A DNA stretch of 64,000 nt from a virus: IMG/VR virus record IMGVR_UViG_3300022871_000011, positions 13,274 to 77,273 of that record. One strand, 5' to 3'. Below the pieces are notes generated by a model. The model saw only the letters and a program-made list of their open reading frames with translations, was not told the DNA's origin and did no database searches. This document shows positions 8,567 to 54,524 of this stretch, piece after piece. Made by a program: the position numbers and the translations under genes. Position 1 is the stretch's first letter, and the number at the start of each line of letters is the position of its first letter.

Positions 8567-8715
8567 ACGTTGGTAGCTAATAGGGTTAAGCGCTCGCATT
8601 TCAAGCGAGGTCAGAATAGACCGTACACCTGGTTAGGTTTATTCCCAAAATTAGGAACGGTATGCGCATACCGGTTCTATGGGTGATGGTAGTTCGAATC
8701 TATCCCAACGTGCCA
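8567..8715 (+). tRNA. tRNA-Glu(TTC)-like gene with a 78-nt structured variable region
   Basis: Acceptor ACGTTGG/CCAACGT, G discriminator, CCA; D arm GCT..AGC; anticodon arm CTCGC-ATTTCAA-GCGAG; T arm GGTAG-TTCGAAT-CTATC. Confidence 0.75.
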
Positions 8716-8725
8716 TTTTATTTAA

Positions 8726-8921
8726 GGTCCTGTAGCTGATATTGGGTTAGCGGCTGGGTGTTGCCTTTGTCATAAGGCACCAGTGTCAGATCGGCAAGAA
8801 ACATAGCCAACCGGTTGGTTATACGAAAAGCCTATCGGCCAAAATTTATGCAGGAAGCGCAGGAACAGTGCGGAATGTGTAATGGGCGTATAAGGAGGTT
8901 CGATTCCTTCTGGGATCACCA
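8726..8921 (+). tRNA. atypical 196-nt tRNA-like gene (possibly Asp-derived, GTC in loop) with an extended anticodon arm and ~105-nt variable region
   Basis: GGTCCTG/TGGGATC-A-CCA; D arm GCT..AGC; GCTGG..TGCCTT-TGTCAT-AAGGCA-CCAGT; T arm GGAGG-TTCGATT-CCTTC. Confidence 0.6.
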
Positions 8922-11513: not shown

Positions 11514-12230
11514 ATGTTGCTCAATTCAAAAAGAGAAACTGTATCGTCTTGCACTAACTACGGAGATTCTAACTGTCCTCTATGCGATGACAAGTTATCC
11601 GCTAAGGTATGCAAGGACAGGGTTAGTCACTGGGCTCACTATCCATGTGCACATGATAAGAACCCTGATGGGCAGATAGAGAAGCCTAAGTGCATGCACT
11701 TTGAATCAGAATGGCATCTGCGTATGAAGCTTGCTTACATGACGTTTAATGGATGGGACATTGAAGTGCCTATCAAGATGAACGGCGTGAAGTATCTAGT
11801 AGACGCAGTGAACCTTAAGACTAAGGTAGCACGTGAGTTTGTACATACGTTAAACCCACAGCTGATAGAGAAGCATAAAACGCTTAAAGAGAAACGTCCG
11901 GACAATGTGATGTGGATATACGATGGCGAGATGTTTGCCAGTGCATACCGCAGACGGAAGTTCTCTGATAAAGGTACATACTTTCAGAAGATGTTAAAAC
12001 CAACAGCACGACGTCTCTATGCCGTAACAGGCGGCCTTATCCATTTTGATGGCAAGATGTATAAGAAGGGTTCGTTTGGTGATTGCTGGTTTGAACAGAC
12101 TGGTAGGGCTACACGGGAGATCCTTAAAAGGTATGAAGCTATCGACTTTACTAATGTCGAGAACAACCCGGAAGTAATACGTGACTTGGTATCCGACGAG
12201 GCTATCAAGCAATTTGTTAAAAAACTATGA
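11514..12230 (+). CDS. CoiA-like Zn-finger/PD-(D/E)xK nuclease
   Basis: CPLC...HWAH...C..ESEWH...EV...DAV...EF pattern. Confidence 0.65.
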   Translation: MLLNSKRETVSSCTNYGDSNCPLCDDKLSAKVCKDRVSHWAHYPCAHDKNPDGQIEKPKCMHFESEWHLRMKLAYMTFNGWDIEVPIKMNGVKYLVDAVNLKTKVAREFVHTLNPQLIEKHKTLKEKRPDNVMWIYDGEMFASAYRRRKFSDKGTYFQKMLKPTARRLYAVTGGLIHFDGKMYKKGSFGDCWFEQTGRATREILKRYEAIDFTNVENNPEVIRDLVSDEAIKQFVKKL

Positions 12231-19145: not shown

Positions 19146-20248
19146 GAAATGTGCAACTATACAATGCGTTAGTTCGCGTCTTCAAAGAAGTAAGAATCGC
19201 GAACGAGGACGAAGCAGCAGTGTTCAGAGCCCCGAGGCTTTCAGCAGTGCAGAATCGTTTGAAGAACAAGTATAAGGATCGTAAAGACCTTATGCCTGAA
19301 CGTGTCTTTGGTGGCGAACAATACCAAGTATGCTGCCCTTATTGTGGTGATAACAGGTATAGGCTATATATAAGTCATGCCTGGGATCGTCATATGAAAG
19401 ATGAGGATGGTAAGATGATCTATGCCGGCAAGAGAGCTATGTGTCATAATGAGCAGTGTCTGGATAACTTGGATAACTTCCGTAATTTGGATGCCAAGCT
19501 ACTACAGAACACTAACTCACAAGACTATGTTCCCTTGGCCTGCTCTACTAATGTAGAAGCATTCAGGCATAGAACGGTACAGCTACCACCGGTGACACCT
19601 TTAAATGACCCGAGCGTCCCAGAGGACATTCAGGCATACGTAACAAATAGAGGCTACGACTTAGATGAGTTGACTAATGGATGGGGAGTAGGTGTCGGTG
19701 ACATCTGGTTCTATCCTAAGCCTTCATTAATATTTCCTATTGTACAGAATGGCGTGCGTAAATGTTGGCAGGCTAGGTACACAGGAGAAGACTTTAAAGC
19801 TTTGGGTAAACCAAAGTACTATTGGCCTACAGGCGTCAAGAAGTCCTGGTTACTCTACAACATGGATATGGCTAAGCTGTATCCGGGTGTAGTACTGACC
19901 GAGGGGGTCCTAGACGCGATCAAAATTGGCCCTGTGGGGACGTGCATGTTCGGAAAAATTCCGTCGGCTCACCAAGAGCAGCTATTAGCTACGCACTGGA
20001 AAAACAGTACGTTAGTATGGATTCCGGATGAAGATGATCCGCAAAGTATTAAGACTGCGGAGGAATATACAGAGAAGTGGAACAGAAAAGGACTCTTCAG
20101 GGAAGGTGCACACGTCGTACGTCTTCCTAGCGGAGACCCGGGTGACCACTCTAGGAGGGATTTGTGGAATTTGATTGTGGACAAAGCGCCATCACTGTCC
20201 AGGTTCGCGGACGGACGTACCCAGTCAGAATCTGGAATGGTAGGGTAG
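19142..20248 (+). CDS. DNA primase
   Basis: CPYC..CHN zinc finger; KYY; TEGVLDA TOPRIM motif; DxD. Confidence 0.88.
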   Translation: MRNVQLYNALVRVFKEVRIANEDEAAVFRAPRLSAVQNRLKNKYKDRKDLMPERVFGGEQYQVCCPYCGDNRYRLYISHAWDRHMKDEDGKMIYAGKRAMCHNEQCLDNLDNFRNLDAKLLQNTNSQDYVPLACSTNVEAFRHRTVQLPPVTPLNDPSVPEDIQAYVTNRGYDLDELTNGWGVGVGDIWFYPKPSLIFPIVQNGVRKCWQARYTGEDFKALGKPKYYWPTGVKKSWLLYNMDMAKLYPGVVLTEGVLDAIKIGPVGTCMFGKIPSAHQEQLLATHWKNSTLVWIPDEDDPQSIKTAEEYTEKWNRKGLFREGAHVVRLPSGDPGDHSRRDLWNLIVDKAPSLSRFADGRTQSESGMVG

Positions 20249-23200
20249 ATACCCCGCTTGATGGAACTGAATTTGGAGTTGACACGGAGACGCTCTTAAT
20301 TGAGGGTCCTGTCAAGCTACCGGATATGGTAATCATGCAGGTGTTTAATGGTATATCGGTTGACATTGTAACGTGGGATAAGGTTGATCTTTATCTCAGG
20401 CTACTGGAGAAGCACAACAAGGAGAAGATCCTATTGTACTTCCTTAATGCACCATTTGATATACGTGTGATCAATAGCACGACTCTACACAGAATGTTGG
20501 CTAACGATCAAGTAATAGATGTAGGCTCACGCCATCGTCTTTATAAGTTAGCAACGCAGGGGTACTTCGAAGAACCTGTATCACTGGCTAACCTGTGTCG
20601 TCTGTACTTGCACCAGGAGCTAGATAAGCCTGAGGATATCAGGATGGGCTTCACACGTGATATGGTACTAACAGCAGCGGATGTAAGATATGCAGCATTG
20701 GATGCTGTAGTGACACTGCTGATAGCGAGAGAGATGCCCGAGCAACCAACTGAAGCCTTACAGGCTAAAGCCGACCTTGTACTGGACCTAATAAAAGCAG
20801 CCGGTATTAAGGTAGACAAACCAGCTTGGGATGCTCATAAGCAGAGTATGCAGGACCGTTATGTAGTAGCAGCAGATGTCTTGAGAACCCACGGGTTCGA
20901 ACCAGACTCCAATGCTAATAAGCCTGGTACATTACTAGGTAAGTTCTGTAGTGCCATGGGTATCGATGCCCCACCCAAGGTATGGTCAGTGACTAAGCTC
21001 AAAGGTATACTATATGTAATGTATGCAGAGAGCGGAGGCACATTAGAGCATGCCTGTAGTGAACTGAAGATAGCAATGCCAGCCATTGTGGATAAGAAGT
21101 TCAAGATGACTAAGAAGAACACCCAGGACTTGACTGCTTGTTTAGCCAAGCATGACATGGTGGATCTTATAAGCACACGCAAGAGTAGGCCCTTTACTAA
21201 GGTGCTCCTACTCATGGCGGAGCTCATGAAAGAAGGCAATACCTATAAGGCTGTAATGGCTGAGACAAGTAAGCAGTACAATGCTGCAGGTGGGTGGGAG
21301 GATGACTCCGCTTTTAAAGGCCCCACTGCATTTGTACAAGACCATCTTAAGAAGCTGCAAGCTGTGCATGGTATAACATTCGCAGAGACACCCGGCGGTA
21401 AGATCAAGATGAGCAAGGATGAAGCCTGGCGTCTTGAGTCAAAGGGTATCAAGGACGAGTTCCTAGAAGCCTACATAGACTATAAGCATATCGAGAAGAT
21501 CCTCGGTACATATCTTAATGATGAGTTTATTTATACGGACGGCCGAGTTCATGCCAGATTTAATATCATGGTAAAAACGGGCCGCACGAGTTGTTCAAAA
21601 CCCAATCTTCAAAACCTGCCTAAGGCAGACGGCATCCGGGAACTGTTTACAGTTGAGGATGGTAAAGTCATGGTTAGTATTGATTATAATCAGCTGGAAC
21701 TATGTTCTCTAGCACAACACTGCCATAAGGAGTATGGTGTAAGTCGTATGAGAGAACTAATAAATGCTGAGATTGATTTACATAGTTGGTTCGCGGGGAG
21801 GAAGCTTAGGCATATCACCCCAGAGAATGACTATGATGGAACCGAGGTGTCCAGAGTAGGCCTCCTACCTATCCTTAAGAATATAAAGGATACAGAGGAT
21901 GGAGAACGAAGTAAGGCAAAAGCAGCGAACTTCGGTCAAAACTGCTTGCTTTTGCCTAAGGAACGTAGTATAGTAGCATAAACTATAGGAGTTATGCTAT
22001 GAAGAAATGTTTATTTTGTGGGAAAGGGCCGGTAGCAATAAAATACTGTTCTACGTTATGTAAGAGCAGATACCGGTCGAAACATGTGAGGTATGATAAA
22101 GTGTGTGAGTTTTGTGAAAAAGAGTTTGACACAACAACTAAAGCAACTAGATTCTGTTCCACGAGTTGTGCAGGGAAAGGAACCCCTGTGCCTCTTAAGA
22201 CATTAATCTGTGTTGATTGTGGTGAAGAGTTCGAATTCAAAGGCCGCACTAAAAAGCTACGCTGTGGCACTTGCTGGTCCGCCAAGAGATCAGAGCAATC
22301 CATGACATATAGATGCCAGAAGGACGCCTCCATTAAAAGGGGCGCAGGCAGTGGAGGGGCTCAGTTTGCTGAGGCCAATCACATGTGGAACTCCACAGCT
22401 AAGTATCATAGGCATGATGGCTATCACTACGACTACAGAGCCCGGTGCTTTAAACACTGGATCAAAGCGTGTGTTGTATGTGATAAAGAGGAAGGGCTCA
22501 TAGATGTTCACCATGTAAACGGTGATAGGGAGGATGTCTCTTTTGGGAATCTTGTCCCACTATGCCGCAAGTGCCACTCACAGGTACACAAGATAAATAA
22601 AGAGCTGGGCTACGATAAGTATGAAGAAGCCCTATTTGACCACCTATGGAAGGAAGGCCGAAGTAAAATCGCGGAATTAAGCGGGAACCCTACGTCCGAT
22701 GATAAGGGAATCCGAACCGAAGGCTAAACTAAGTTTAGTCAGGGGCAGAGCATAGAAGATGAAATAATTCTTCCACGAGGCCGCGACACAGTAATGTGAA
22801 AAGATATGCCGAGCTGCGGTGAAAGCCGTAGAAGTAGAGGATAAAAAGCCTTTACGATAACAATTGTTTCCAGGTGGTATGGGCGTAAATAGATTCTTAA
22901 ATGAATCATGGAAGAACGGGATGTATGATATGACATACGAGGAAGCACAGGAGCTACGCTCTGCGTGGTTTGATGCCTTCCCCGAAATGGAATTTCATAT
23001 GAATCCATCGACGTGCTCGGCACCTAATGGAGGGGCTGACACAAACATTTATGTGGGACATTCCTTAGCAGGAACATCACGTAAGTATTGCTCGTATAAT
23101 AGTGCGTGCAATTATCCGTTAAATTGTAGCGGATAAAAAATGAGGTGAATTCATGGGAAGCCAACTTGACAAATTAGCTTGTAACACGTATTGTAGTTAC

Positions 23201-24352
23201 AAGCTGAAGGTGATCATGAGCCAAGCTGCACAGGGATGTGTGGAAGGTGCAACGACTAGTCTGTACAATCTAGACCAGATGATGGGAGACCACGAGCGCC
23301 TCACCCGGGTAAAGTATACCCGGTGATGATATAGTCTGAACTATTACAAATGTCAAGGAGTTAATTAGCATGAAATGTCAGAAAAGGAACGAGAAGTAAG
23401 TCGCGAACGAGGTAGAAAGTATAGAGAAAACATGTCTGAAGAGCAGAGGACACGTAAAAGCGATCGCGACAAACAAAACCGAAGAGCTGCTAAGAAGGAA
23501 AGACTTACACTGAACAAGACTTTGTTTAAGAAGGGTAAGAGAATCTGTAGCAGATGTTATGACAAGAAAGTACTCTCGGCATACTCGACCAAAGGGAACA
23601 GCCCCTCCAATTATAATAAGATATGTGATAGTTGTTTAATAAAGCTCTATCAAACTATCTCTTATTCTCCGGAGGTCTTGACCCCTAAATTCTGGCGTAA
23701 AAAAGCATATAGCTGTAATGGAGGGTTTATATCCCGTCAAAAGCGACGGGGAATCGACACAGCTATACAGACATTAGGCACCCAAAAGATAACAGGAGAA
23801 GAACTCCTAAAATTATTTGAGTGCCAGAATAGGCTTTGCTTATACTGCCATACAGATTTATCTGACGGGCAGTTTCAACTAGACCATAGAACTCCGATTA
23901 ACGGAGGAGGAAAACATGGTATAGAAAATATAGACATAGTTTGTGCTGACTGTAATATGCTTAAATTTGATAAAGACCCTGAGTATTTCAAGGGCTTCAT
24001 CGGATCATATGCTAAACGTATACTCCAAGTAATAGAATTACAGGATAAAGAGCCTGTAAGATAACACAATGTTCAATCACTCGCCGCCACAGGAGCAAAG
24101 GTTGCACTTTGGGATCTGATGCGGAACGGGTACAAAATCGTTAACTTTATTCATGATGAAGTATTGCTTGAAGTAGATCGGGAGGGTCTGCACGAGAATG
24201 TTCTACGTGCACAGCAAATCATGGTAGACGCGATGAAGTTCATACTACCGGACGTCCGTATTGGAACGGAAGCGGCAGCTATGACACACTGGTATAAGGG
24301 CGCTAAACCCTTATTCGATGAACACGGCAAACTCACTTTGTGGGTGCCATAA
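20164..24352 (+). CDS. polA: family A DNA polymerase; exons 20164-21936, 22867-23119 and 24072-24352
   Basis: Exonuclease DTET and YAALDA; TGRTS..PNLQN; DYNQLE; motif B KAANFG/FPGG; NYP/FQS; motif C IHDE. Confidence 0.92.
21937..22866 (+). mobile_element. group I intron 1 of polA, with HNH ORF in the P1 loop
   Basis: Exon ACUUCGGU pairs with guide GCCGAAGU at 22657-22664; core downstream with variant P7 (GAGCAUA/UAUGCC); terminal G; in-frame join. Confidence 0.87.
21999..22727 (+). CDS. intron-encoded HNH endonuclease with N-terminal Cys-rich repeats
   Basis: DVHHVNGD...NLVPLCRKCHSQVH; promoter TTGCTT-N17-TATAGT at 21946-21974. Confidence 0.87.
   Translation: MKKCLFCGKGPVAIKYCSTLCKSRYRSKHVRYDKVCEFCEKEFDTTTKATRFCSTSCAGKGTPVPLKTLICVDCGEEFEFKGRTKKLRCGTCWSAKRSEQSMTYRCQKDASIKRGAGSGGAQFAEANHMWNSTAKYHRHDGYHYDYRARCFKHWIKACVVCDKEEGLIDVHHVNGDREDVSFGNLVPLCRKCHSQVHKINKELGYDKYEEALFDHLWKEGRSKIAELSGNPTSDDKGIRTEG
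23120..24071 (+). mobile_element. group I intron 2 of polA
   Basis: P1 UUAUCCGU/GCGGAUAA; CGACTA and GATATAGTC; terminal G; join gives NYPFQSLAA. Confidence 0.88.
23375..24064 (+). CDS. intron-encoded HNH endonuclease
   Basis: CLYC...LDHRTP..GGKH..ENI..VCADCN; promoter TTGACA-N17-TATTGT at 23166-23194. Confidence 0.87.
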   Translation: MSEKEREVSRERGRKYRENMSEEQRTRKSDRDKQNRRAAKKERLTLNKTLFKKGKRICSRCYDKKVLSAYSTKGNSPSNYNKICDSCLIKLYQTISYSPEVLTPKFWRKKAYSCNGGFISRQKRRGIDTAIQTLGTQKITGEELLKLFECQNRLCLYCHTDLSDGQFQLDHRTPINGGGKHGIENIDIVCADCNMLKFDKDPEYFKGFIGSYAKRILQVIELQDKEPVR

Positions 24353-43750: not shown

Positions 43751-43885
43751 GGGGGCGAAGCGAATCGATTGCTTAGCGAGCAAGTTATCCGGCGTGGTAG
43801 CCCACACGGACAAATGCTTTAGACGTAACCGTGGATGACCCAAGCGTTAATCAAGACCAGGGCTCGCAGCCCTGCGCCTCCACCA
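43751..43885 (+). ncRNA. ssrA: miniature tmRNA-like RNA (tRNA-like domain with G3-U70, 135 nt)
   Basis: GGGGGCG/CGCCTCC-A-CCA; stemless D-loop ending TCGA; GAC before T arm CAGGG-CTCGCAG-CCCTG; extended -10 TGGTATAAT at 43726-43734. Confidence 0.75.
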
Positions 43886-43919
43886 ACACCTCCAACCACT
43901 AACTATGAAAGGATATATT

Positions 43920-45284
43920 ATGAACGATCTAGTATTAAAGCTCGTCGAACAAGCCGAGCTCAAACATTGGCAAGTCCTACTCGTAGGAGGCGCCGTAAGG
44001 GATCAGTTCTTTGAAAAAGCTGAAGAAGTAAAGGACTATGATCTAGAATTCTACGGCCCAACAGCTGAAGAGCTAGAAGAGTTCCTAAGTAAAATAGGAA
44101 ACGTCAAAGCAGTTGGCAAAAGCTTTGGTGTTTATAAGTTAACAGTAGATGATATTGATCTTGATGTGTCCTTACCTAGAAGGGAGAACAAAGTAGGTGT
44201 AGGGCACAAGGGTTTTGTAATTGAAGCGGACGGGAGCATGACTCCTGAGGAAGCCGCTACTCGAAGAGACTTCACTATGAATGCCATCGCAATGAACGTG
44301 CGAAGTGGTGAGGTCCTGGATTACTTTAAAGGCTTGAATGACATCAAGGACAGGATACTTAAGCACACATCGGATCGGTTCATTGAGGACCCACTGAGAG
44401 TGCTACGTGGTTTCCAGTTCTGTGGTCGTTTTGGTCTGTCCGCGGATAAGTCAACGTTAGAGCTGTGCGAACAGCTACTCCCACAATACACCGAGCTACC
44501 AAAGGAACGTGTATGGATGGAGTGGGAGAAATGGGCCGATAGATCTACCAAGCCCTCTTTTGGGTTAAAGTTCCTTAAGAAGACAGGTTGGCTAGAGCTC
44601 TACCCTGAGCTATATGACCTGGTAGGACTGGAACAAGACGCGTTGTGGCATCCTGAAGGGGATGTATTTACACATTCGTGTCAATCCTGCGATGCTATGG
44701 TTAAGCTATGTGATGAGGGTGGTAAGAAGGGTAGGGACCGTCAGGTTCTTATGTTTGCCATACTCTGTCATGACTTAGGCAAGGTTGTAACGTCAGAGAT
44801 CAATGATCAAGGCCGTATAATTTCCAGAGGCCACCCTGAAGCGGGTGAGGAGTACACCAGGCTATTTCTTAATAGTATAGGTGCACCCCAGGAAGTTATC
44901 GAGAGGGTTATACCTCTGGTCGTTAATCATATGATGCACTTATCAGAACACTCGACCAAGTCGGTCAGGCGTTTGTCCATTAGATTAGGGAAAGCCAATA
45001 TCGATGAGCTTGCTTATGTGATAACGGCGGACTCACGTGGACGTGGAAGTTTATCAAAGAATGAAGTACCCGGATTAGCTGAACTGATTAGACTGGCCAA
45101 AGAGGTAAAGGTTCAGACCTTTGCCCCTAAGCCTATCTTAAAGGGTAGACACCTTATGGACCTCGGTCAAGCGGCCGGACCTGATATGGGTAAACACCTT
45201 GAGAGAGCCTACCAAGCACAGCTAGATGGATTCTTCTCCACAGAGACCACAGCAATACAGTGGTTTGTGGATCACACAAAATAA
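43920..45284 (+). CDS. cca: CCA-adding tRNA nucleotidyltransferase with HD domain
   Basis: VGGAVRD, DYD, RRDFTMNA, EDPLRVLR, HPEGDV, HDLGK. Confidence 0.93.
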   Translation: MNDLVLKLVEQAELKHWQVLLVGGAVRDQFFEKAEEVKDYDLEFYGPTAEELEEFLSKIGNVKAVGKSFGVYKLTVDDIDLDVSLPRRENKVGVGHKGFVIEADGSMTPEEAATRRDFTMNAIAMNVRSGEVLDYFKGLNDIKDRILKHTSDRFIEDPLRVLRGFQFCGRFGLSADKSTLELCEQLLPQYTELPKERVWMEWEKWADRSTKPSFGLKFLKKTGWLELYPELYDLVGLEQDALWHPEGDVFTHSCQSCDAMVKLCDEGGKKGRDRQVLMFAILCHDLGKVVTSEINDQGRIISRGHPEAGEEYTRLFLNSIGAPQEVIERVIPLVVNHMMHLSEHSTKSVRRLSIRLGKANIDELAYVITADSRGRGSLSKNEVPGLAELIRLAKEVKVQTFAPKPILKGRHLMDLGQAAGPDMGKHLERAYQAQLDGFFSTETTAIQWFVDHTK

Positions 45285-45930: not shown

Positions 45931-46893
45931 ATGAAATGTGCAGATGTAGGTTCGTTGCTAGAGGAAACACCTCAAGCATATTATTGGATGGGTTTTTTGA
46001 TGGCTGATGGTTATTTGTCCGCTAAGCGGGTTACGTTAACACTCGCTCTAGAGGATGAAGAGCATCTACGTAGGTTTGGTAATTTTATCAGGTACTCAGG
46101 CAGGCGTAAAGCGGAGGGTAATAGCCAGAGCATATCTGCTATGGATACGTGTCTAATTCCTAGATTAAAACGTAAGTTTGATCTAGATAAACAGAAAACG
46201 TATAAACCACCTGCTCAACTACCTGATGTGCCGGATGACCTGTTGTTATCCCTTATTATAGGGTTTATTGATGGGGACGGATGCATCAGAGCCCAGACAG
46301 GACGAATAGACCCCGCGTTGACAGTTAAAGTACACGACTCGTGGCTCGATATAATGGAGGATATGAGTTGTTTTTTACACGAGAGAGCCGGATGCTCTAC
46401 GGTACATGCCCGTATAAATAATGCTGGTTATGCGTTTTTTACTGTAACCAACTCTATCGTCTTAAAATATATTAAGAAGGGAGCACTAAGATTACAGCTA
46501 CCGGTTTTGGCCCGTAAATGGGACAAGGTAGACTTGGCTCATGTGAGCAGGGCAGAGTTGGGCCTTACACGAGTGGGGCAGGTAAAAGAGGCCTCTGCTA
46601 GGGGTTTAAGCCTTCAGGAGATGGCTGATACGTTGAATCTTAAGTATAACACAGTCTACATGATTTGTAGACGTAACGCTATCGCTATGAATAAAGATAA
46701 AGAAGTAAGGCAGGTGGAAACACTAGCCCACGAGGGTTTAACCATCAAACAAATCGCCGCGGAATTAAAACTAAACTACAAGGCTGTTTATCTGCGTTGT
46801 AAAAGACATTCAATCGCGGTTACAAGAGAGAGGAGAGATAAAAAAGCTAATGTCAAATCAGTACTGGAGCGCGGATCTTCACATCTCGCATAA
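45931..46893 (+). CDS. free-standing double-motif LAGLIDADG endonuclease with C-terminal HTH repeats
   Basis: YWMGFLMADG and IIGFIDGDG; promoter TTGATA-N17-TATCTT at 45878-45906. Confidence 0.88.
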   Translation: MKCADVGSLLEETPQAYYWMGFLMADGYLSAKRVTLTLALEDEEHLRRFGNFIRYSGRRKAEGNSQSISAMDTCLIPRLKRKFDLDKQKTYKPPAQLPDVPDDLLLSLIIGFIDGDGCIRAQTGRIDPALTVKVHDSWLDIMEDMSCFLHERAGCSTVHARINNAGYAFFTVTNSIVLKYIKKGALRLQLPVLARKWDKVDLAHVSRAELGLTRVGQVKEASARGLSLQEMADTLNLKYNTVYMICRRNAIAMNKDKEVRQVETLAHEGLTIKQIAAELKLNYKAVYLRCKRHSIAVTRERRDKKANVKSVLERGSSHLA

Positions 46894-47455
46894 GAATGTG
46901 ATAGGTCATAACAATCGACCTTTTTCATGCATAGAGGAGCATGATCAGGCTATGATTGATAATATAAATAATACCTGCACACGTAAGGATACCCTTAATA
47001 TTATAGGGGACTTCGCATGGAACGATCACGGTAAATGGCTTGCTGCTATCAAATGTAAGAAGGTTCTCATCAGCGGGAGCCACGACAGGATGGCGCAGAA
47101 GTACCTGGATTGCTTCACTGCAGTGTACGATATGAGAATAATGAAACATCAACATGAAATATTGGTGATGGCTCATTGCCCCTTCCGTACATGGGAACGT
47201 TCCCATTATGGTAGTGTACTCCTACATGGCCACTGCCATGGTAGACTGGAGACCTGGAACCTGTCGTTTGATGTAGGCGTGGACACCCATGACTACAAGC
47301 CGTATGCATGGGATGAGCTCAAGCCTATGATAGACAAACGCAGAGATGAGATGAGAGCAGCAGGTAGAGTCGTGACAGAGGATAGAACAGGTAAAGTCCT
47401 GTGGAGACAAGATGATGTCAGGTTCTGGAAAGATAAGTACGATAAGAAAGAATAG
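46850..47455 (+). CDS. calcineurin-like metallophosphoesterase
   Basis: DLHISH, GDF, GSHD, HCP, HGHCH, DVGVD. Confidence 0.9.
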   Translation: MSNQYWSADLHISHKNVIGHNNRPFSCIEEHDQAMIDNINNTCTRKDTLNIIGDFAWNDHGKWLAAIKCKKVLISGSHDRMAQKYLDCFTAVYDMRIMKHQHEILVMAHCPFRTWERSHYGSVLLHGHCHGRLETWNLSFDVGVDTHDYKPYAWDELKPMIDKRRDEMRAAGRVVTEDRTGKVLWRQDDVRFWKDKYDKKE

Positions 47456-47798: not shown

Positions 47799-48122
47799 AT
47801 GAAACCTCATATAGTAGACTTTCTAAGGAAGACCCTCAACAATGAGGCTGTTCCCGAAGAAGTACATAAAGACATCGTCGACCTCATGCTTGAAGAGCTG
47901 GGGTATGACGGCGTTGCAACAGGTGAACGTTTCAGCTGCGTCCAACTGGTATCCGGAGATTGGATACCTGTTACGGCCTATGCTGAGATTAGCAGTCACA
48001 TACTCGATGATAGTAAAATCGCAGCAATCAAAGCATTGAGGGCCGCAACATCGTGGGGTCTTAAGGACTCTAAGGACTTTATCGAACGTTATTGGAATGA
48101 ATTTAAAAAATCAGGAGATTAA
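47799..48122 (+). CDS. ribosomal protein L7/L12 C-terminal domain-containing protein
   Basis: KIAAIKALRAATSWGLKDSKDFIE matches the bL12 CTD motif KIxVIKxVRxxTGLGLKEAKDLVE. Confidence 0.8.
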   Translation: MKPHIVDFLRKTLNNEAVPEEVHKDIVDLMLEELGYDGVATGERFSCVQLVSGDWIPVTAYAEISSHILDDSKIAAIKALRAATSWGLKDSKDFIERYWNEFKKSGD

Positions 48123-48123
48123 A

Positions 48124-49443
48124 ATGAAAATGTTTTTTACAAAGAAGTTCTCGAAGAAGGAATTGGCAGCTGAGATCTATGATGCTATCCATGATACAGC
48201 GGAGATCAAGGACAACATCGACAGTGACACGAACCTCAAGCTGCTGAAGACTCAAGAAGATATGGGTATGTATGTCTGGAACGCCCTCGTTGAAGTAGGG
48301 ATCTGGGATGGTTATAAGAATAGCTTTGAGGTTGACTTCGAAAACGTCAGCATGACTCATCGTGATTTCGGTGAAAAGGATTTCCTGGGCTTTCATACCC
48401 TGGAGAATGACTTGACCTACCTTGGTGTATGCTTCGGTGGTGATTGGGAGACTCCTGTATATGCGGCTATCTTCCACGGTGGAGGGGAGCTACATGTGGC
48501 TGTACCTATTGATGGTAATACGTATAACACCAAGACTGGTGGTGCGTATGGTAACGATGCCCTTGCAGATGCCTCCAACATGACTCTAAGAGTTATGCAG
48601 GAGCAGTTCAAGGACATGACATGTGATCACATTCCGGATGCAGCAGATGATACAGAGGATGCCCTTATTGATGTAGGGGAGCAGCTCTCTACTATGATTC
48701 ATCCCCGTTGTGACCTGATGATTGCCGAGCTAAACCGTGACTTACTCTATTATGATGTTAAGGCGGAAGAAGGCCAGCAGGTTGAACTACCAGAGCTGGC
48801 TGATATCACTACCATGATCCACGGGTCTAAGCTTGCTGATAATCTATCAGAAGCCATCAATGAAGCAGCAGACGCCCGCTTCCACGAGGATGACGGTAAC
48901 TATGCTTGTGATGGTGCACTGGAGTGCTCAACAGAGGCTGTGGAGGCCTGGGTAGAAGCAGAAGGTCTCCGTAAATGTGACGATAAGGCTACAGAAGACG
49001 AGAAGAAGGAAGAAGCAAAAGAGGTAGCAGCGGCTGTGCGTAAGCATTTCCGTGATAACCTACCTAATGCTTTTCCTCTGCCCATTATCACAGAAGACCG
49101 TGAGATTCTATTCAAGCCTGGTGCACACCAGGACGACGATGCGGAAGGCGAGGCTCTGGAAGATACTACTATGCGTCAGCAGGTAGATAAGTTCAAGGAA
49201 GCCAATGATGTACAGCGCCGTTTAGCGTTGCACAGGCTAACTGCACAGATCGCACAGGAAACTAAAATGCTTGCTCAATTGAGTGAAGCCGACCTCGAGC
49301 TCCTTATGAAAGAAGCCACCGAGAAGGAAGACGCAGCAAAGGAGGCAGCAGATGATAAGGACGATGCAGCCGGACCCGATGCTGATTCGGACGAACCGGA
49401 AGCTACGAGTGGTAGTGAGGGCGGAGACAAAGAGGCTGGGTGA
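48124..49443 (+). CDS. acidic hypothetical protein (DFEN...GGDWE...GNTYN)
   Basis: AGGAG RBS; long ORF. Confidence 0.75.
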   Translation: MKMFFTKKFSKKELAAEIYDAIHDTAEIKDNIDSDTNLKLLKTQEDMGMYVWNALVEVGIWDGYKNSFEVDFENVSMTHRDFGEKDFLGFHTLENDLTYLGVCFGGDWETPVYAAIFHGGGELHVAVPIDGNTYNTKTGGAYGNDALADASNMTLRVMQEQFKDMTCDHIPDAADDTEDALIDVGEQLSTMIHPRCDLMIAELNRDLLYYDVKAEEGQQVELPELADITTMIHGSKLADNLSEAINEAADARFHEDDGNYACDGALECSTEAVEAWVEAEGLRKCDDKATEDEKKEEAKEVAAAVRKHFRDNLPNAFPLPIITEDREILFKPGAHQDDDAEGEALEDTTMRQQVDKFKEANDVQRRLALHRLTAQIAQETKMLAQLSEADLELLMKEATEKEDAAKEAADDKDDAAGPDADSDEPEATSGSEGGDKEAG

Positions 49444-51218: not shown

Positions 51219-51587
51219 ATGAAAACTTCAAACCGAAACCCCATTCCTGAAGGAGTATACAACTACTACATCAAGGAAGATAAAAAGATCATCGGATCAG
51301 TGGCCTTCAAGCCTAACGATGATGGCACTGTGTCTAGAGGCATAGCTGTGACCGGGCTAGGAGAGTCAGGTAGTAAGAAGATTGGAAGAAAGATTGCACT
51401 GGGAAGACTCCAGAGAGCCTTAAAAGATGCAGAATCCTCCAGTCCTATTAACTTTAGACGGGATGCTTGTGCAAGGTTCGCAACATCGTTCGAGGGCATC
51501 AAGGCTGATATGTTTAAGTCAGGCTTTGAGGTTGAACCAACATCCTTCGAAACAAGGATAATTGAAAGTGTCAGTAGTGACTACTAA
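51219..51587 (+). CDS. hypothetical protein (KKIGRKIALGR family)
   Basis: AGGAG RBS. Confidence 0.7.
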   Translation: MKTSNRNPIPEGVYNYYIKEDKKIIGSVAFKPNDDGTVSRGIAVTGLGESGSKKIGRKIALGRLQRALKDAESSSPINFRRDACARFATSFEGIKADMFKSGFEVEPTSFETRIIESVSSDY

Positions 51588-51612
51588 GTTGACAAAGAAG
51601 AAGTAAGTTTTT

Positions 51613-51707
51613 GGAAGTGCCATGGTTGCAAGATAGTTGAAATAGAGGCCGTCGTGCGCAAGCATACTATCCACCAGCAGGACCGCGGGTAAATTCTGCC
51701 ACTTCCA
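51613..51707 (+). ncRNA. tRNA-like small RNA (acceptor stem and T-like arm, no D or anticodon arm)
   Basis: GGAAGTG/CACTTCC-A; GCGGG-TAAAT-TCTGC; GATAGT/ACTATC. Confidence 0.45.
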
Positions 51708-51713
51708 TCCCTT

Positions 51714-51926
51714 TGTAATATAAAAGGTAGGCCCAGAAGCAGCCATCCTCTAAGGAGTGGGACGCACTTGTAGGCATAGAAAGGTTTCTGAGTTTAGCGA
51801 ACTCTAGTCAGGGACCTACAATGTAGCACAGGCAGGTTAGCGACCTGTTAACCGTCGTCTTGAATGCTACGGCTAGTAAAGATGAACAAATGGTTTCCCT
51901 TTAGCGTAACAGCACACTATATTACA
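51714..51926 (+). ncRNA. ncRNA containing a 23S rRNA L11-binding (H43-H44) mimic
   Basis: GGTAGGCCCAGAAGCAGCCATCCTCTAAGGAGT...GCGTAACAGCACAC closed by TGTAATATA/TATATTACA. Confidence 0.8.
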
Positions 51927-52102
51927 TTTAATTTAAACAAAAGGAGATATTATGAGAGAACAAGAATCAGAAGTAAAAGAGAGCATCCGGAATCTGCTAA
52001 AAGACATGTCTGTTGATCAGCTGAGAGCTGAAGCAGTTAAACAGGAAGCTCACCCTAATCGGATTGATCTGATTGAAGCTGAGCTCAAAACAAGAAGGTA
52101 AT

Positions 52103-52402
52103 ATGGAAGGCAAAGTAATAGAAGAGGGTATTAACTCTGATGATGGTCAACTCTATCGCTGCACATGTGGCTCAGAGATACTGGCTATAGAGTTCGAGAC
52201 GGACCCTAAGTGGCAGGAGGACTGCTACTGTGATGTCTCCATATGGAGATGCGGGGATAGGCACATAGGCTGGTTGTATAGGCTTAGAATGATCTGGCGT
52301 ATACTTACCATAGGTCATCCATATACAGATAATGTCTGTATGGACAAGAAACAATTTAAACAGTTTCGGGAGTACATCCTGAAGCATGAAGTAGAAGCTT
52401 AA
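52103..52402 (+). CDS. hypothetical protein
   Basis: ORF with CxC. Confidence 0.6.
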   Translation: MEGKVIEEGINSDDGQLYRCTCGSEILAIEFETDPKWQEDCYCDVSIWRCGDRHIGWLYRLRMIWRILTIGHPYTDNVCMDKKQFKQFREYILKHEVEA

Positions 52403-52403
52403 T

Positions 52404-52491
52404 GCCTGGCCCTGGTGGGAATCTTTCTGCGAAGTTCTAGAACAGTACCAGGAGAGAAGGTTTGGAGGTTCAATCCCTCCCCTAGGCTTCA
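52404..52491 (+). ncRNA. degenerate tRNA-like element
   Basis: GCCTGG/CTAGGC acceptor; T arm GGAGG-TTCAATC-CCTCC; no D arm. Confidence 0.45.
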
Positions 52492-52499
52492 AGTCTTAC

Positions 52500-53530
52500 G
52501 TGCGGCGGCTTGAGTACAGGCCGGGAAAACTCTACGAACCCTCGGGCTATTAGGTCAGGCGAGGTATCCGGATTAGTACCCTGGATGAACGCCTTGGACA
52601 GTAGTATGGGCCCCTCCGGTCCGTGAAAAGCGGTCCTCGCGCACCAGTTTGTGCCAGAATGGGCCTTAACAGGTCTAGATACTCTGTGGAAGTCGATTGT
52701 AGTACCCTGGGCGAGATAACCGGAAGTAACCTGGGCAGGCAGTAGATTAGTAACAGTAGTCACTCGGAGGGTGAATTGACACCCTCGCTGGCTTTTGATT
52801 TTTAAGGATGTGCCACTATTAAGTTTGACTCGAAGGTCGTGGGTTCGAGTCCCACCTCCGCGAAACCGGCAGTGAACGGGCATCGTCGTTGGCGTGTGTC
52901 TACTAGTACCTGTCTTAATTTGGCGGAGTGGAGCAGTTGGAAAAGCTCGTCGGGTCTTTATTATAACGTCGGATGATCCTGGTGTGGTCTGCTAGCTCCT
53001 AAGCGAACACCATAGGGAAGAGTAGTCATACAAGTAAGCTATTATAAGGATAGCCCAACGTATACAATGCCCCTCTAGAATTACGCAGAGAAGACGTTTG
53101 TCGATCGAACTATGAGTACGATGATCTAATGTTTTGTGCCGCCCCGTATACAACTTAGGCGTGACAGGAGGGAAGCTTTGTGACTGTGGATTTTTAAGTG
53201 TTTACACTTAGTTCTCCCAGCGGGCCTCGAAAAACGCGGTGAATACTTATGAGTTCAAGATACTAGGAACTGGATAGTTTAGAGTTTAACGCCGGAGGGC
53301 ACAGATTTAGCCTGGGACTAGGGGGTAAGCCTCTGTTGTATAGACTTCAGTAGGGTCTCCCAAAAAATACGGTGAAGGCAACTAGTATAAGTAGTATCAG
53401 TGTTGGATGATCTAACGTTTTGTACCGTCTCACGGCCTAAAGGCCGGATTGTCCGAGAGGGGGAATAAGGCCCGACGAGATAACGCGGTCCCCTGGTCCT
53501 CGAAAAACGCGGCGAAGACACTGGTATTAA
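52500..53530 (+). ncRNA. candidate ~1-kb structured RNA (or RNA cluster) with an embedded permuted tRNA
   Basis: No credible ORF; many helices, AGUA/GAA motifs, repeated GAUGA..GAA modules. Confidence 0.6.
52827..52956 (+). tRNA. circularly permuted initiator-tRNA-like fold (3' half 52827-52863, 5' half 52922-52956), no anticodon loop
   Basis: Halves closely resemble tRNA-fMet and pair with each other in the acceptor and anticodon stems. Confidence 0.75.
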
Positions 53531-53534
53531 ACCT

Positions 53535-53569
53535 GGCCCCCTTCTTAACGGGAGGGGGCCTTAACTTTT
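53535..53569 (+). terminator. intrinsic terminator
   Basis: GGCCCCCTTC..GGAGGGGGCC then TTAACTTTT. Confidence 0.6.
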
Positions 53570-53580
53570 GGAGGAATGTG

Positions 53581-53955
53581 ATGGATAAAGAAAGACCAAT
53601 TGATAAAAAGTATATAAAGTATGACATATATAAGCTATGCTCAGCCAAGACTGCCTTGAAAGGTGCTAAGGAGGCAGTGGTGGGTGATGGTGGCGATAGA
53701 ATAAAACTTTTGGGGAGGGGGATGAAAGGCAATGCTGTGTACGCTCTTGCCTACGTAGCTGCGGCTATGTGTGAGCATTTTGATGTGATTAAGGAAACAG
53801 CTCAGGCTATGATCGAACATGATTTGAGAGCCGAGGCTTATACACTACACGGAGAAGCAGGCGAGGCCTTTACAGAGGCTAGCATGGTTGTATTCTCAGA
53901 GAAATTGGAGGATGGAGATGAAGACGACGATGAAGACGATTCCCATCCATTTTAA
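53581..53955 (+). CDS. hypothetical protein with acidic tail
   Basis: GGAGG RBS; the upstream extension in the ORF track overlaps the ncRNA. Confidence 0.65.
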   Translation: MDKERPIDKKYIKYDIYKLCSAKTALKGAKEAVVGDGGDRIKLLGRGMKGNAVYALAYVAAAMCEHFDVIKETAQAMIEHDLRAEAYTLHGEAGEAFTEASMVVFSEKLEDGDEDDDEDDSHPF

Positions 53956-54241
53956 AGTATGCTTCACAGGCAAGATGTATTGGCATCGTAATGTAATGCA
54001 TACACAAGCAAAGATGGACGGACAGATACCTGTTAATTCAGTTACCAAGAATACAGACATACTGGTATTGGCTGACTTTAAGTCAATGAGTATTAAAGCA
54101 TATAAAGCGCGCCGTAATGGCACACGTTTACTTAAAGAGACTGATTGGTATGGTGTACCCTGGCATAAGTCTGAGAAGGAGATTAATGATTATATAGATG
54201 TACATATGTTCGCCGAGGTTTTAAAAGACTATGATGATTAA
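53918..54241 (+). CDS. stand-alone BRCT-domain protein
   Basis: VCFTGKM..R...SVTKNTDILV...K..KA...G..LL.E..W. Confidence 0.75.
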   Translation: MKTTMKTIPIHFKVCFTGKMYWHRNVMHTQAKMDGQIPVNSVTKNTDILVLADFKSMSIKAYKARRNGTRLLKETDWYGVPWHKSEKEINDYIDVHMFAEVLKDYDD

Positions 54242-54266
54242 ACACTAACCAAAAAGGAGGTGCAAC

Positions 54267-54524
54267 ATGCCAGCAATTATAATGTTGGTAGTGATTGTGG
54301 TCGGCATCGCGTTGTATGCTGTCCTCAAGGACAACAAAAAGTTCCATCGTTTCGTGGAGAAGCTCTCCGTGGACAAGGATCTGTTAAAGGATCCGGTGGA
54401 TGTCGTCGAGAAACATGCTGAAGTGGAGCAGGAAGCCGAAGAGATGGCTACCCGTAAAACCGCCGAAGCTAAACAAGCGAAGGAGGATGCTAAAATACTC
54501 CGGAGATTAAGAGGAGGTAAGTAA
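54267..54524 (+). CDS. small membrane-anchored protein
   Basis: AGGAGG RBS; N-terminal TM segment. Confidence 0.65.
   Translation: MPAIIMLVVIVVGIALYAVLKDNKKFHRFVEKLSVDKDLLKDPVDVVEKHAEVEQEAEEMATRKTAEAKQAKEDAKILRRLRGGK

What the first reader, a model, noticed from the sequence alone, without database searches (positions are those of the whole stretch)
52827..52956. Circularly permuted initiator-tRNA fold: the 3' half precedes the 5' half
Seen: 52827-52863 GACTCGA-AGGTC-GTGGG-TTCGAGT-CCCAC-CTCCGCG-A is a tRNA 3' half, and 52922-52956 GGCGGAG-TG-GAGC-AGTTGGAAAA-GCTC-G-TCGGGTC is the matching 5' half. They pair in the acceptor stem (GCGGAG/CTCCGC with a 1:72 mismatch, as in fMet) and in a 7-bp anticodon stem. 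There is no anticodon loop; that stem opens into the flanking RNA. The 58-nt linker is itself a hairpin with a GAA/AGUA loop-E motif, and no CCA is encoded. Known: both halves resemble tRNA-fMet; this topology occurs in two-piece tmRNA and in some algal and archaeal tRNAs. Inference: RNase P, 3' trimming and the phage CCA enzyme could give a two-piece RNA presenting an fMet-like acceptor end, for example as an IF2, formylase or ribotoxin decoy.
Basis: partly seen in the sequence, partly recalled or inferred. Interest (0 to 1): 0.88.

Follow-up and report, generated by a model that had tools for sequence, protein, structure and literature searches.

The report
Back-to-front initiator-tRNA mimic in phage
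A large phage encodes a small RNA that folds like an initiator tRNA with its two halves in swapped order and no anticodon loop; this is the design of the known bacterial and phage "YrlA" tRNA-mimic RNAs, here in an unusual version whose acceptor stem is closed by a 58-base hairpin.

Summary
52827-52956 (+) folds as a tRNA body in permuted order: closing stem, variable loop, T arm, acceptor 3' strand, a 58-nt hairpin, acceptor 5' strand, D arm, closing stem. All the usual tRNA tertiary nucleotides are present and there is no anticodon loop. A strict descriptor finds it once in the window and never in 60 shuffles.

This is the architecture of YrlA-type Y RNAs (Chen et al. 2014).

Phages with a related CCA-adding enzyme carry compact sealed versions. 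Some sit beside Ro60 (TROVE) genes; one complete genome has neither TROVE nor DUF2828.

This copy fails YrlA membership:
- 16.7 bits against a threshold of 69.
- No GNCGAA motif.
- No Ro60 gene in the 77-kb, 41%-complete record.

It differs from those copies by initiator-type marks and by its 58-nt cap. I found no homologue, so there is no covariation, and no read data could be obtained. The function (decoy, tether or processing signal) is inferred.

This scan has reported permuted tRNA mimics of this kind before in many other phages. I rate it a new variant of a known kind, of moderate interest.

The parts
52795..52822 (+). Weak sigma-70-like promoter candidate: TTGATT, 16-nt spacer, TATTAA. 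It would start transcription at about 52827-52830.
   Evidence: Read from the sequence. It does not pass the scanner's criteria, so this is inference only.
52827..52833 (+). 5' strand of the 7-bp closing stem. This is the anticodon-stem 3' strand (positions 39-43) plus two extra pairs.
   Evidence: Pairs with 52950-52956; probability 0.95-0.98 in contexts up to 220 nt.
52834..52838 (+). 5-nt variable loop AGGTC (positions 44-48), with A44, G45, G46 and C48.
   Evidence: The positions fit the tRNA tertiary pairs G26.A44, G10-C25-G45, C13-G22-G46 and G15-C48 (established tRNA knowledge).
52839..52855 (+). T arm: 5-bp stem and 7-nt loop TTCGAGT.
52856..52863 (+). Acceptor 3' strand (positions 66-72) plus discriminator A73. 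No CCA follows.
   Evidence: acceptor stem probability 0.9-0.97 in every context tried.
52864..52921 (+). 58-nt hairpin capping the acceptor stem. It has three A-U pairs, an internal loop, a 5-bp helix and GAA/AGUA strands facing each other.
   Evidence: Fold -14.3 kcal/mol, z -0.6. Compact homologous-type modules in other phages have 3-7 nt here.
52922..52930 (+). Acceptor 5' strand (positions 1-7), then U8 and G9. The expected RNase P site lies between T52921 and G52922.
   Evidence: The cleavage site is inferred from the 12-bp acceptor-plus-T-stem rule and from the M. smegmatis YrlA precedent.
52931..52949 (+). D arm: 4-bp stem with A11:U24 and a 10-nt loop with A14, G15, G18, G19 and A21. 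G26 follows.
52950..52956 (+). 3' strand of the closing stem (positions 27-31 plus two extra pairs). The U-rich stretch TTTATTAT follows at 52957-52964.
52403..53580 (+). ORF-free, motif-rich region in which the element lies. It ends with a strong terminator at 53535-53560.
   Evidence: AGTA is the most enriched 4-mer here: 18 observed against about 6 expected. No protein family matches the overlapping ORFs.
43905..45284 (+). CCA-adding enzyme gene (PolyA_pol head domain plus HD domain). It is a candidate tailing enzyme for CCA-less tRNA-like RNAs.
   Evidence: Pfam E 2.3e-20 and 2.9e-07.

Best explanation
The element is a phage-encoded, circularly permuted tRNA mimic of the YrlA architectural type. 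A T arm, a closed acceptor arm and a D arm are sealed by a 7-bp stem where the anticodon arm would be. It most likely arose from tandem initiator-tRNA genes, and it keeps every nucleotide needed for the L-shaped tRNA fold. It cannot decode, because it has no anticodon loop. It most likely works as a tRNA-shaped ligand for proteins that recognise the tRNA elbow and acceptor arm. The G1xG72 mismatch, U at -1, A73 and the weak A-U pairs beyond the 7-position acceptor stem mark a natural RNase P site at 52921/52922. A 3' processing site would lie after 52863. Cutting at both would remove the 58-nt cap. The phage CCA-adding enzyme could then tail the result, giving a two-piece RNA as shown for M. 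smegmatis YrlA. The fold potential, its non-random nature, and the existence of the same design in related phages are shown. Transcription, folding in vivo, processing, the protein partner and the biological role are inferred.
For: The sequence and fold are, and the chance controls. The Rfam YrlA model aligns its positions 23-85 (T arm, acceptor stem-loop, D arm) to 52831-52952, treating the cap as a 61-nt insertion; E is 0.039 for the whole 77-kb record. Phage loci found through the CCA-enzyme homologue carry compact sealed modules of the same order. Examples are L006 1060-1129 and 1200-1266, and L007 8459-8525 and 11631-11697; both of those records encode TROVE/Ro60. TROVE-adjacent modules in L021, L023 and L024 match Rfam YrlA over its full length with E 5e-7 to 2e-4. 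A conserved module lies between tRNA-Asp and tRNA-Pro in G005 and G007, with a UUCG cap in one and a 22-nt cap in the other. Cap length therefore varies, and G005 is a complete genome with neither TROVE nor DUF2828. Published precedent is PMC4201824: YrlA has T and D arms flanking a closed acceptor stem. M. smegmatis YrlA, which has a 7-bp acceptor stem, is cut by RNase P and CCA-tailed, and some YrlA RNAs have longer acceptor stems. A CCA-adding enzyme gene lies 7.5 kb upstream. Both inner halves are intact while no trace of the outer halves remains, and the closing stem has two pairs that an initiator anticodon loop would not supply; both points argue for selection.
Against: No homologue of this element was found, so there is no covariation. 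The Rfam YrlA score is 16.7 bits against a gathering score of 69, and the Ro-binding parts of the model (positions 1-22 and 86-114) do not align. There is no GNCGAA motif upstream of the module. CGAA occurs only inside the closing stem/variable loop and at the acceptor-cap junction. No TROVE or DUF2828 gene is present in the 77-kb record, although the record is only 41% complete. Predicted stability is ordinary (z -1.5). In long contexts only the acceptor stem stays probable. The promoter candidate is weak. No expression or end data could be obtained.
Confidence: 0.55

Rival explanations
1. The element is one module of a longer structured transcript, the 1.18-kb ORF-free region 52403-53580. 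It would act either as an embedded tRNA-shaped domain, as in GOLLD-type phage RNAs, or as a processing signal where RNase P cuts the precursor into smaller RNAs. This reading overlaps with the best explanation.
For: The region has no supported ORF and a strong terminator only at 53535-53560. Another tRNA-like acceptor/T-arm element lies at 52405-52495. AGTA is the most enriched 4-mer in the region. Two paralogous units of about 200 nt lie at 53095-53305 and 53381-53560.
Against: Rfam gives no GOLLD, ROOL or other large-RNA match even at E 10. A terminator-like hairpin at 52767-52786 and a promoter-like site just before the element suggest separate units. No homologous region was found in kin phage records or in metagenomes.
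Confidence: 0.2
2. It is a decaying remnant of two tandem initiator-tRNA genes whose outer halves were lost. The complementarity of the inner halves would be inherited, not selected, and the RNA would have no function.
For: Tandem tRNA-fMet genes 45 nt apart exist in a phage locus (L149 484-560 and 606-682), which is the layout expected of an ancestor. The record has no canonical tRNA, which would fit decay of a former tRNA array. There is no covariation evidence of selection.
Against: All four stems and all tertiary-interaction nucleotides of the two inner halves are intact, while the outer halves are unrecognisable. The closing stem has two extra pairs (T-A and C-G) that an initiator anticodon loop would not supply. 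Permuted modules are a conserved, recurrent feature of related phages.
Confidence: 0.13
3. It is a two-piece (permuted) tmRNA-like RNA that acts in ribosome rescue.
For: The gene order is the same as in two-piece tmRNA genes: acceptor piece first, then the 5' piece.
Against: ARAGORN, which models permuted tmRNA, finds nothing. No Rfam tmRNA-family hit covers the element. Positions 3:70 are C:G, not G.U. There is a full D arm with a stem. No pseudoknot or tag frame was recognised downstream.
Confidence: 0.02
4. It is a true permuted tRNA gene whose transcript is circularised and reopened at the acceptor stem to give a decoding tRNA, as in Cyanidioschyzon or Thermofilum. Alternatively, the 3' half belongs to a conventional tRNA that begins at 52766 and carries a 43-nt insert.
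For: The half order fits. The Rfam tRNA model gives an 18.8-bit alignment over 52766-52860.
Against: No anticodon loop can be assembled: the stem runs 7 bp straight into U-rich flanks, and position 33 would be C. No bulge-helix-bulge motif is present. The 18.8-bit match is below the threshold of 29 (E 1.8), and its 'D arm' is the terminator-like hairpin at 52767-52786. No T arm lies downstream of the 5' half anywhere in the window.
Confidence: 0.03

Closest known systems
YrlA-type Y RNAs of bacteria and phages (Rfam RF02553; Chen et al. 2014, PMC4201824)
   Same: The module order is the same: stem, variable region, T arm, closed acceptor stem-loop, D arm, stem. The tRNA tertiary nucleotides are kept. 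The setting is a phage tRNA/RNA-repair gene island with a CCA-adding enzyme. Acceptor-cap length varies within the class.
   Different: It scores far below the family threshold (16.7 against 69 bits). It has no GNCGAA(N)G motif and no matching Ro-binding stems. No Ro60 gene lies within 4 kb or anywhere in the 77-kb record. Its cap is 58 nt instead of a short loop. Its D stem and acceptor stem are of the initiator type (A11:U24, 1:72 mismatch), whereas the phage modules seen here have elongator-type C11:G24.
Mycobacterium smegmatis YrlA after processing (PMC4201824, section read)
   Same: It has a 7-position acceptor stem closed at the top. That stem is cut by RNase P, and the new 3' end is completed to CCA, giving two base-paired pieces. 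This is the fate proposed for the present element.
   Different: There the processing was shown by Northern blot, cDNA and M1 RNA assay, and the RNA is bound by Rsr. Here nothing has been measured, 58 nt rather than a few would have to be removed, and no C of the CCA is encoded.
Two-piece (permuted) tmRNA
   Same: The acceptor/T-arm piece is encoded before the 5' acceptor piece, with an intervening segment between them.
   Different: It has no G3.U70, no mRNA-like domain, tag frame or pseudoknots, and it has a complete D arm. ARAGORN and Rfam do not call it.
Circularly permuted tRNA genes (Cyanidioschyzon merolae, Thermofilum pendens)
   Same: The 3' half precedes the 5' half, joined by a linker at the acceptor ends.
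   Different: Those genes encode a full anticodon loop and mature through a circular intermediate made by the archaeal/eukaryal splicing machinery. Here the anticodon loop is absent and the host is bacterial.
GOLLD and ROOL large phage RNAs
   Same: They are large, ornate non-coding RNAs of phages that lie beside, or embed, tRNA-like elements. The surrounding 1.18-kb region here is ORF-free and motif-rich.
   Different: There is no Rfam match to either family at E 10. Nothing here shows a single large transcript.

Membership tests
YrlA (Rfam RF02553) | Permuted module order: T arm, closed acceptor stem-loop, D arm, all enclosed by a stem. | tested here: met
   The Rfam alignment covers model positions 23-85.
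YrlA (Rfam RF02553) | Score at or above the family gathering threshold of 69 bits. | tested here: not met
   16.7 bits; E 6.2 in the all-family scan and 0.039 per genome. TROVE-adjacent phage copies also fall below the threshold, but score 36-45 bits over the full length.
YrlA (Rfam RF02553) | GNCGAA(N)G motif near the 5' end, in the Ro60-binding module. | tested here: not met
   Upstream of the module there is none. CTCGAAGG within the closing stem/variable loop matches 5 of 6 positions but is in a different place. CGAA also sits at the acceptor-cap junction.
YrlA (Rfam RF02553) | Ro60 (TROVE) gene within about 4 kb on the same strand. | tested here: not met
   There is no TROVE match in the whole 77-kb record and no DUF2828 match either. 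The record is 41% complete, so absence from the full genome is not shown.
YrlA (Rfam RF02553) | Binding by Ro60/Rsr, and tRNA-type modifications. | not testable with these tools
   This needs immunoprecipitation or modification mapping.
Canonical tRNA | A conventional cloverleaf with an anticodon loop, called by ARAGORN or by Rfam RF00005 at 29 bits or more. | tested here: not met
   ARAGORN finds none. The best RF00005 alignment scores 18.8 bits, and nothing in the whole record reaches significance.
Bacterial initiator tRNA | CAU anticodon. | tested here: not met
   There is no anticodon loop.
Bacterial initiator tRNA | Unpaired 1:72; G2:C71, C3:G70 and G4:C69; purine11:pyrimidine24. | tested here: met
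   G52922 lies opposite G52862. G:C, C:G and G:C follow. A52932 pairs with T52947. The defining features themselves come from established knowledge.
Bacterial initiator tRNA | Three consecutive G:C pairs at 29-31:39-41. | tested here: not met
   The pairs are G:C, G.U, G:C.
Two-piece tmRNA | G3.U70 alanine determinant, stemless D-loop analogue, pseudoknots and a tag reading frame. | tested here: not met
   Positions 3:70 are C:G, and there is a 4-bp D stem. ARAGORN and Rfam give no tmRNA call on the element.
Permuted tRNA genes (algal/archaeal type) | Complete anticodon loop, and a bulge-helix-bulge junction for circularisation. | tested here: not met
   The 7-bp stem opens directly into U-rich flanks.

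The most novel reading that the evidence does not exclude
The RNA works without Ro60. RNase P and a 3' tRNA-processing nuclease cut out the 58-nt cap, and the phage CCA-adding enzyme tails the new end. The resulting two-piece, anticodon-less initiator-tRNA body, which keeps the formylase-type acceptor marks, acts during infection as a decoy or sponge for host factors or toxins that recognise initiator tRNA. The excised loop-E hairpin would be released as a second small RNA.
Probability: 0.1. Interest if true: 0.8.

Novelty: new variant of a known kind. Interest (0 to 1): 0.42.

Why it matters
What bacterial and phage Y-RNA-like tRNA mimics do is still open. This copy brings together three features that make the question testable:
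- It is visibly derived from an initiator tRNA and keeps the acceptor-stem and D-stem marks that distinguish initiators.
- Its acceptor stem carries a built-in break point (a 1:72 mismatch followed by weak pairs) and a large removable cap. Processing into a CCA-tailed two-piece RNA can therefore be checked with simple RNase P and CCA-enzyme assays.
- It sits in a phage fragment with a CCA-adding enzyme but no canonical tRNA and no Ro60 gene, and a complete related phage carries a permuted module without any Ro60-type gene.

That last point bears on whether such mimics can act independently of Ro60. If instead the missing part of the genome encodes Ro60, this is simply one more phage Y RNA with an unusually long acceptor arm.

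Tried and rejected
The 19 contigs that hold the neighbouring 99-aa protein could therefore not be fetched.

**Searches for homologues that found nothing useful**
- blastn of 52400-53400 against phage records: no match.
- Exact and degenerate DNA patterns in viral contigs (the latter gave only coding-sequence chance hits).
- Neighbour proteins in viral and metagenome contigs and in the 5.8-billion protein set: only self matches.
- DNA of the whole ORF-free region against five kin phage records: only T-arm-sized matches.
- A block conserved between the two paralogous units, searched in metagenome contigs: no match.
- A T-loop...D-arm pattern in viral contigs gave mostly tandem tRNAs.

**Other steps that led nowhere**
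- A custom covariance model was abandoned because MAFFT misaligned the acceptor and closing stems.
- The 448-aa neighbour (48097-49443) was checked as a possible Ro-like partner. It has no family, PDB or homologue match and is highly acidic, so it was rejected.

**Readings rejected**
- tmRNA, true permuted tRNA, a conventional tRNA with an insert, and an attP fragment (no integrase).
- An overlapping protein-coding gene.
- Long-range inverted repeats I1 and I6 are at chance level by my estimate.

Full report
**What is there.**
On the + strand, 52827-52863 reads as the 3' half of a tRNA. It holds the anticodon-stem 3' strand with two extra bases, a 5-nt variable loop, a T arm with a canonical TTCGAGT loop, a 7-nt acceptor 3' strand and discriminator A. 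52922-52956 reads as the matching 5' half: acceptor 5' strand, U8 and G9, a 4-bp D arm with a GG loop, G26, and the anticodon-stem 5' strand with two extra bases.

The halves pair with each other. Six acceptor pairs form, with G opposite G at 1:72. Seven pairs (one G.U) form where the anticodon arm would be. Nothing resembling an anticodon loop exists, and no CCA is encoded.

By position, every nucleotide used for the tRNA tertiary fold is present. These are U8-A14-A21, G15-C48, G18 and G19 with the T loop, G26-A44, G10-C25-G45, C13-G22-G46, T54-A58 and G53-C61. This follows from the sequence plus standard tRNA knowledge.

The 58-nt linker (52864-52921) folds as a hairpin that extends the acceptor helix. 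GAA and AGUA strands face each other within it.

**Is it more than chance?**
- ViennaRNA returns exactly this permuted cloverleaf for 52825-52958 and for 52780-53000, with mean stem probabilities of 0.63-0.98.
- A strict descriptor of my own required a canonical T arm, at least 6 of 7 acceptor pairs, a 4-bp D stem and a 5-bp closing stem in tRNA geometry. It hits once on the + strand, not at all on the - strand, and not at all in 60 shuffled windows.
- With the real 3' half fixed, a shuffled downstream stretch supplies a fitting 5' half in 38 of 20000 trials.
- Canonical T-arm motifs occur four times on the + strand and never on the - strand, against 0.36 expected.
- Against this, stability alone is unremarkable (z -1.5). 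In 400-nt and 1178-nt contexts only the acceptor stem stays probable. Thermodynamic models often lose T and D arms in long contexts, but it is a real caveat.

**Detectors.**
ARAGORN finds no tRNA or tmRNA in the window. Rfam at gathering thresholds finds only a group I intron elsewhere.

A permissive Rfam scan of 51500-54500 gives two relevant weak matches. The first is YrlA (RF02553): 16.7 bits, with model positions 23-85 aligned to 52831-52952 and the cap treated as a 61-nt insertion. The second is a conventional-order tRNA alignment over 52766-52860 at 18.8 bits, below the threshold of 29. Searched alone against the 77-kb record, the YrlA match has E 0.039.

**Does either half have a conventional partner?**
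The upstream candidate is poor. It has five acceptor pairs, no nucleotides 8-9, and a 'D arm' that is really the terminator-like hairpin at 52767-52786. No T arm lies downstream of the 5' half anywhere in the window.

**Context.**
The window is part of a 77-kb virus record judged 41% complete. It encodes phage replication and recombination genes. It also encodes a CCA-adding enzyme at 43905-45284 and a phosphoesterase at 46850-47455.

The record has no canonical tRNA, no TROVE/Ro60, no DUF2828 and no integrase.

The element lies in an ORF-free stretch, 52403 to about 53580, that ends in a strong terminator. ORFs overlapping the element match no protein family. A terminator-like hairpin ends 40 nt upstream. 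A weak promoter-like site (TTGATT, 16 nt, TATTAA) would start transcription at the first bases of the closing stem, and a U-rich run follows the stem. These last points are my reading only.

**Related sequences.**
No homologue of the element or of the ORF-free region could be found, so there is no covariation test. What could be found is the class it belongs to.

Seventeen viral loci encode relatives of the CCA enzyme. In them my descriptor finds compact modules of the same permuted order whose acceptor stem is sealed by a 3-7 nt loop, often UUCG. They are at L006 1060-1129 and 1200-1266, L007 8459-8525 (between tRNA-Glu and tRNA-Tyr) and 11631-11697, and L024 4856-4923.

Both L006's and L007's records encode a TROVE protein. 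In L021, L023 and L024 the modules lie just upstream of the TROVE gene on the same strand, and they match Rfam YrlA over its full length with E 5e-7 to 2e-4.

Two further kin phages, G005 and G007, share a module between tRNA-Asp and tRNA-Pro. Its cap is a UUCG loop in one and a 22-nt hairpin in the other. G005 is rated 100% complete and has neither TROVE nor DUF2828.

Across 1.57 Mb of fetched phage loci, short caps are the rule and long caps are rare.

**Literature.**
- Chen et al. 2014 (PMC4201824) define YrlA by T and D stem-loops flanking an 'acceptor' stem-loop, a GNCGAA(N)G motif near the 5' end, and a position within 4 kb of Ro60. They report it in 254 bacteria and 22 phages and note copies with longer acceptor stems.
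- The same paper shows that M. smegmatis YrlA, which has a 7-bp acceptor stem, is cut by RNase P and completed to CCA in vivo, giving two pieces.
- Phage Ro60/Y RNA pairs are also described for a Thermus phage (PMC12135203) and noted for jumbo phages (PMC7824862).
- This scan has also reported many permuted or handle-tagged tRNA mimics in other phages. I treat those notes only as leads.

**Initiator character and origin.**
The element carries several marks that, by established knowledge, distinguish bacterial initiators: an unpaired 1:72, then G2:C71, C3:G70 and G4:C69, and A11:U24. It has a run of three G's at 29-31, but the middle pair is G.U.

The TROVE-adjacent phage modules have elongator-type D stems instead. 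Against the phage tRNAs in my loci, the halves are not closest to tRNA-Met. The initiator reading therefore rests on these marks and not on overall similarity.

Tandem tRNA-fMet genes 45 nt apart exist in a phage locus (L149). Loss of the outer halves of such a pair would give this layout.

Three observations argue for retention by selection. The inner halves are intact. The outer halves have left no trace. The closing stem has two pairs that an initiator anticodon loop would not supply.

**Mechanism.**
What is shown: a non-random, tRNA-shaped permuted fold, and the same design recurring in related phages, some with Ro60 and one complete genome without.

What is inferred: the RNA folds into an L shape and is handled by tRNA enzymes. 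RNase P would measure 12 bp from the T loop and cut between U52921 and G52922. A 3' nuclease would cut or trim to A52863, and the phage CCA enzyme would tail it. The alternative is that the uncut 25-bp acceptor rod, with its internal loops and its CGAA at the junction, serves as a protein handle.

The partner is unknown: Ro60 from the unsampled 59% of the genome or from the host, or another tRNA-binding protein. Methionylation, and hence formylation or IF2 binding, is unlikely without a CAU anticodon.

**Rivals.**
- A module or processing signal within one long structured transcript is compatible with the data and is not exclusive of the main reading.
- A dead remnant of tandem tRNAs cannot be excluded without relatives or RNA data.
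- tmRNA, a true permuted tRNA, and a conventional tRNA with an insert each fail on defining features.

**Verdict.**
I file it as working like YrlA without being a demonstrable member of the family. It is a new variant of a known kind, marked by its initiator-type identity, its 58-nt cap and the absence of a Ro60 gene in the available sequence. Interest is moderate.

Noticed in passing
window 52405-52495: A second tRNA-like element. It has a 6-bp acceptor helix (GCCTGG / CCTAGGC) and a canonical T arm at 52464-52480. A single long arm replaces the D and anticodon arms; that arm carries facing GGAA and AGTA strands and a CGAA near its tip. The 3' end reads TTCA, not CCA. Neither ARAGORN nor Rfam calls it.
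   Followed up: partly
window 52403-53580: AGTA is the most enriched 4-mer in this ORF-free region compared with the rest of the window (18 observed, about 6 expected). It often appears as AGTA(C/A)C followed by CTGG, or as AGTAGT. AGTA-rich tails also follow the permuted modules of the kin phages (L026 and L029, - strand). These could be loop-E strands or a protein or Hfq-type (ARN)n site; I could not tell which.
   Followed up: partly
window 53095-53305 and 53381-53560: Two paralogous structured units of about 200 nt share the blocks GATGATCTAAYGTTTTGTRCCG and CCTCGAAAAACGCGGYGAA. The second ends in the strong terminator at 53535-53560. They match no Rfam family (EGFOA only at 16.7 bits) and have no match in metagenome contigs.
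   Followed up: partly
window 53449-53955: The listed TTG-start ORF probably begins at the ATG at 53581, which follows a GGAGG. The first 130 nt are the terminator-bearing structured unit, so the non-coding region runs to about 53580.
   Followed up: partly
L029 1504-1616 (-) and L026 1348-1443 (-): A conserved permuted tRNA-like module lies between tRNA-Asp and tRNA-Pro in two phages (G005 and G007). It has a GGGGG/CCCCC closing stem. Its cap is a UUCG loop in one and a 22-nt hairpin in the other. G005 is rated complete and has no TROVE or DUF2828 match, so this is a possible Ro60-independent tRNA mimic.
   Followed up: partly
L006 1060-1266 (= L021 3681-3935, and 4418-4475): Two tandem YrlA-like modules and a third partial one lie upstream of a 556-aa TROVE gene and a tRNA-Met. 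In L007, one module is wedged between tRNA-Glu and tRNA-Tyr with almost no flanking sequence, leaving no room for a separate Ro-binding stem.
   Followed up: partly
window 8567-8921: Two large tRNA-like genes have canonical T arms (8688, 8894) and ACCA-type ends, with long inserts. The first has a TTC (Glu) anticodon loop and an insert of about 78 nt in the variable region. Neither is called by ARAGORN or reaches the Rfam tRNA threshold. The acceptor 3' strand of the first pairs at 6 of 7 positions with the 7 nt at about 8741-8747, inside the second gene.
   Followed up: no
window 43751-43885: A tRNA-like or tmRNA-like RNA lies directly upstream of the CCA-adding enzyme gene, preceded by an extended -10 (TGGTATAAT). 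It is not called by ARAGORN or Rfam.
   Followed up: no
window 23086-23358: A group I intron (Rfam, 63.6 bits) lies among the replication genes downstream of the family A DNA polymerase ORF (20164-21981), which matches only part of the Pfam polymerase profile; its host gene was not determined. A LAGLIDADG-type homing endonuclease ORF lies at 45931-46893, next to the CCA enzyme gene.
   Followed up: no
L149 484-682: Two tandem tRNA-fMet genes lie 45 nt apart in a phage tRNA cluster. This is the arrangement from which a permuted initiator-type module could arise.
   Followed up: yes
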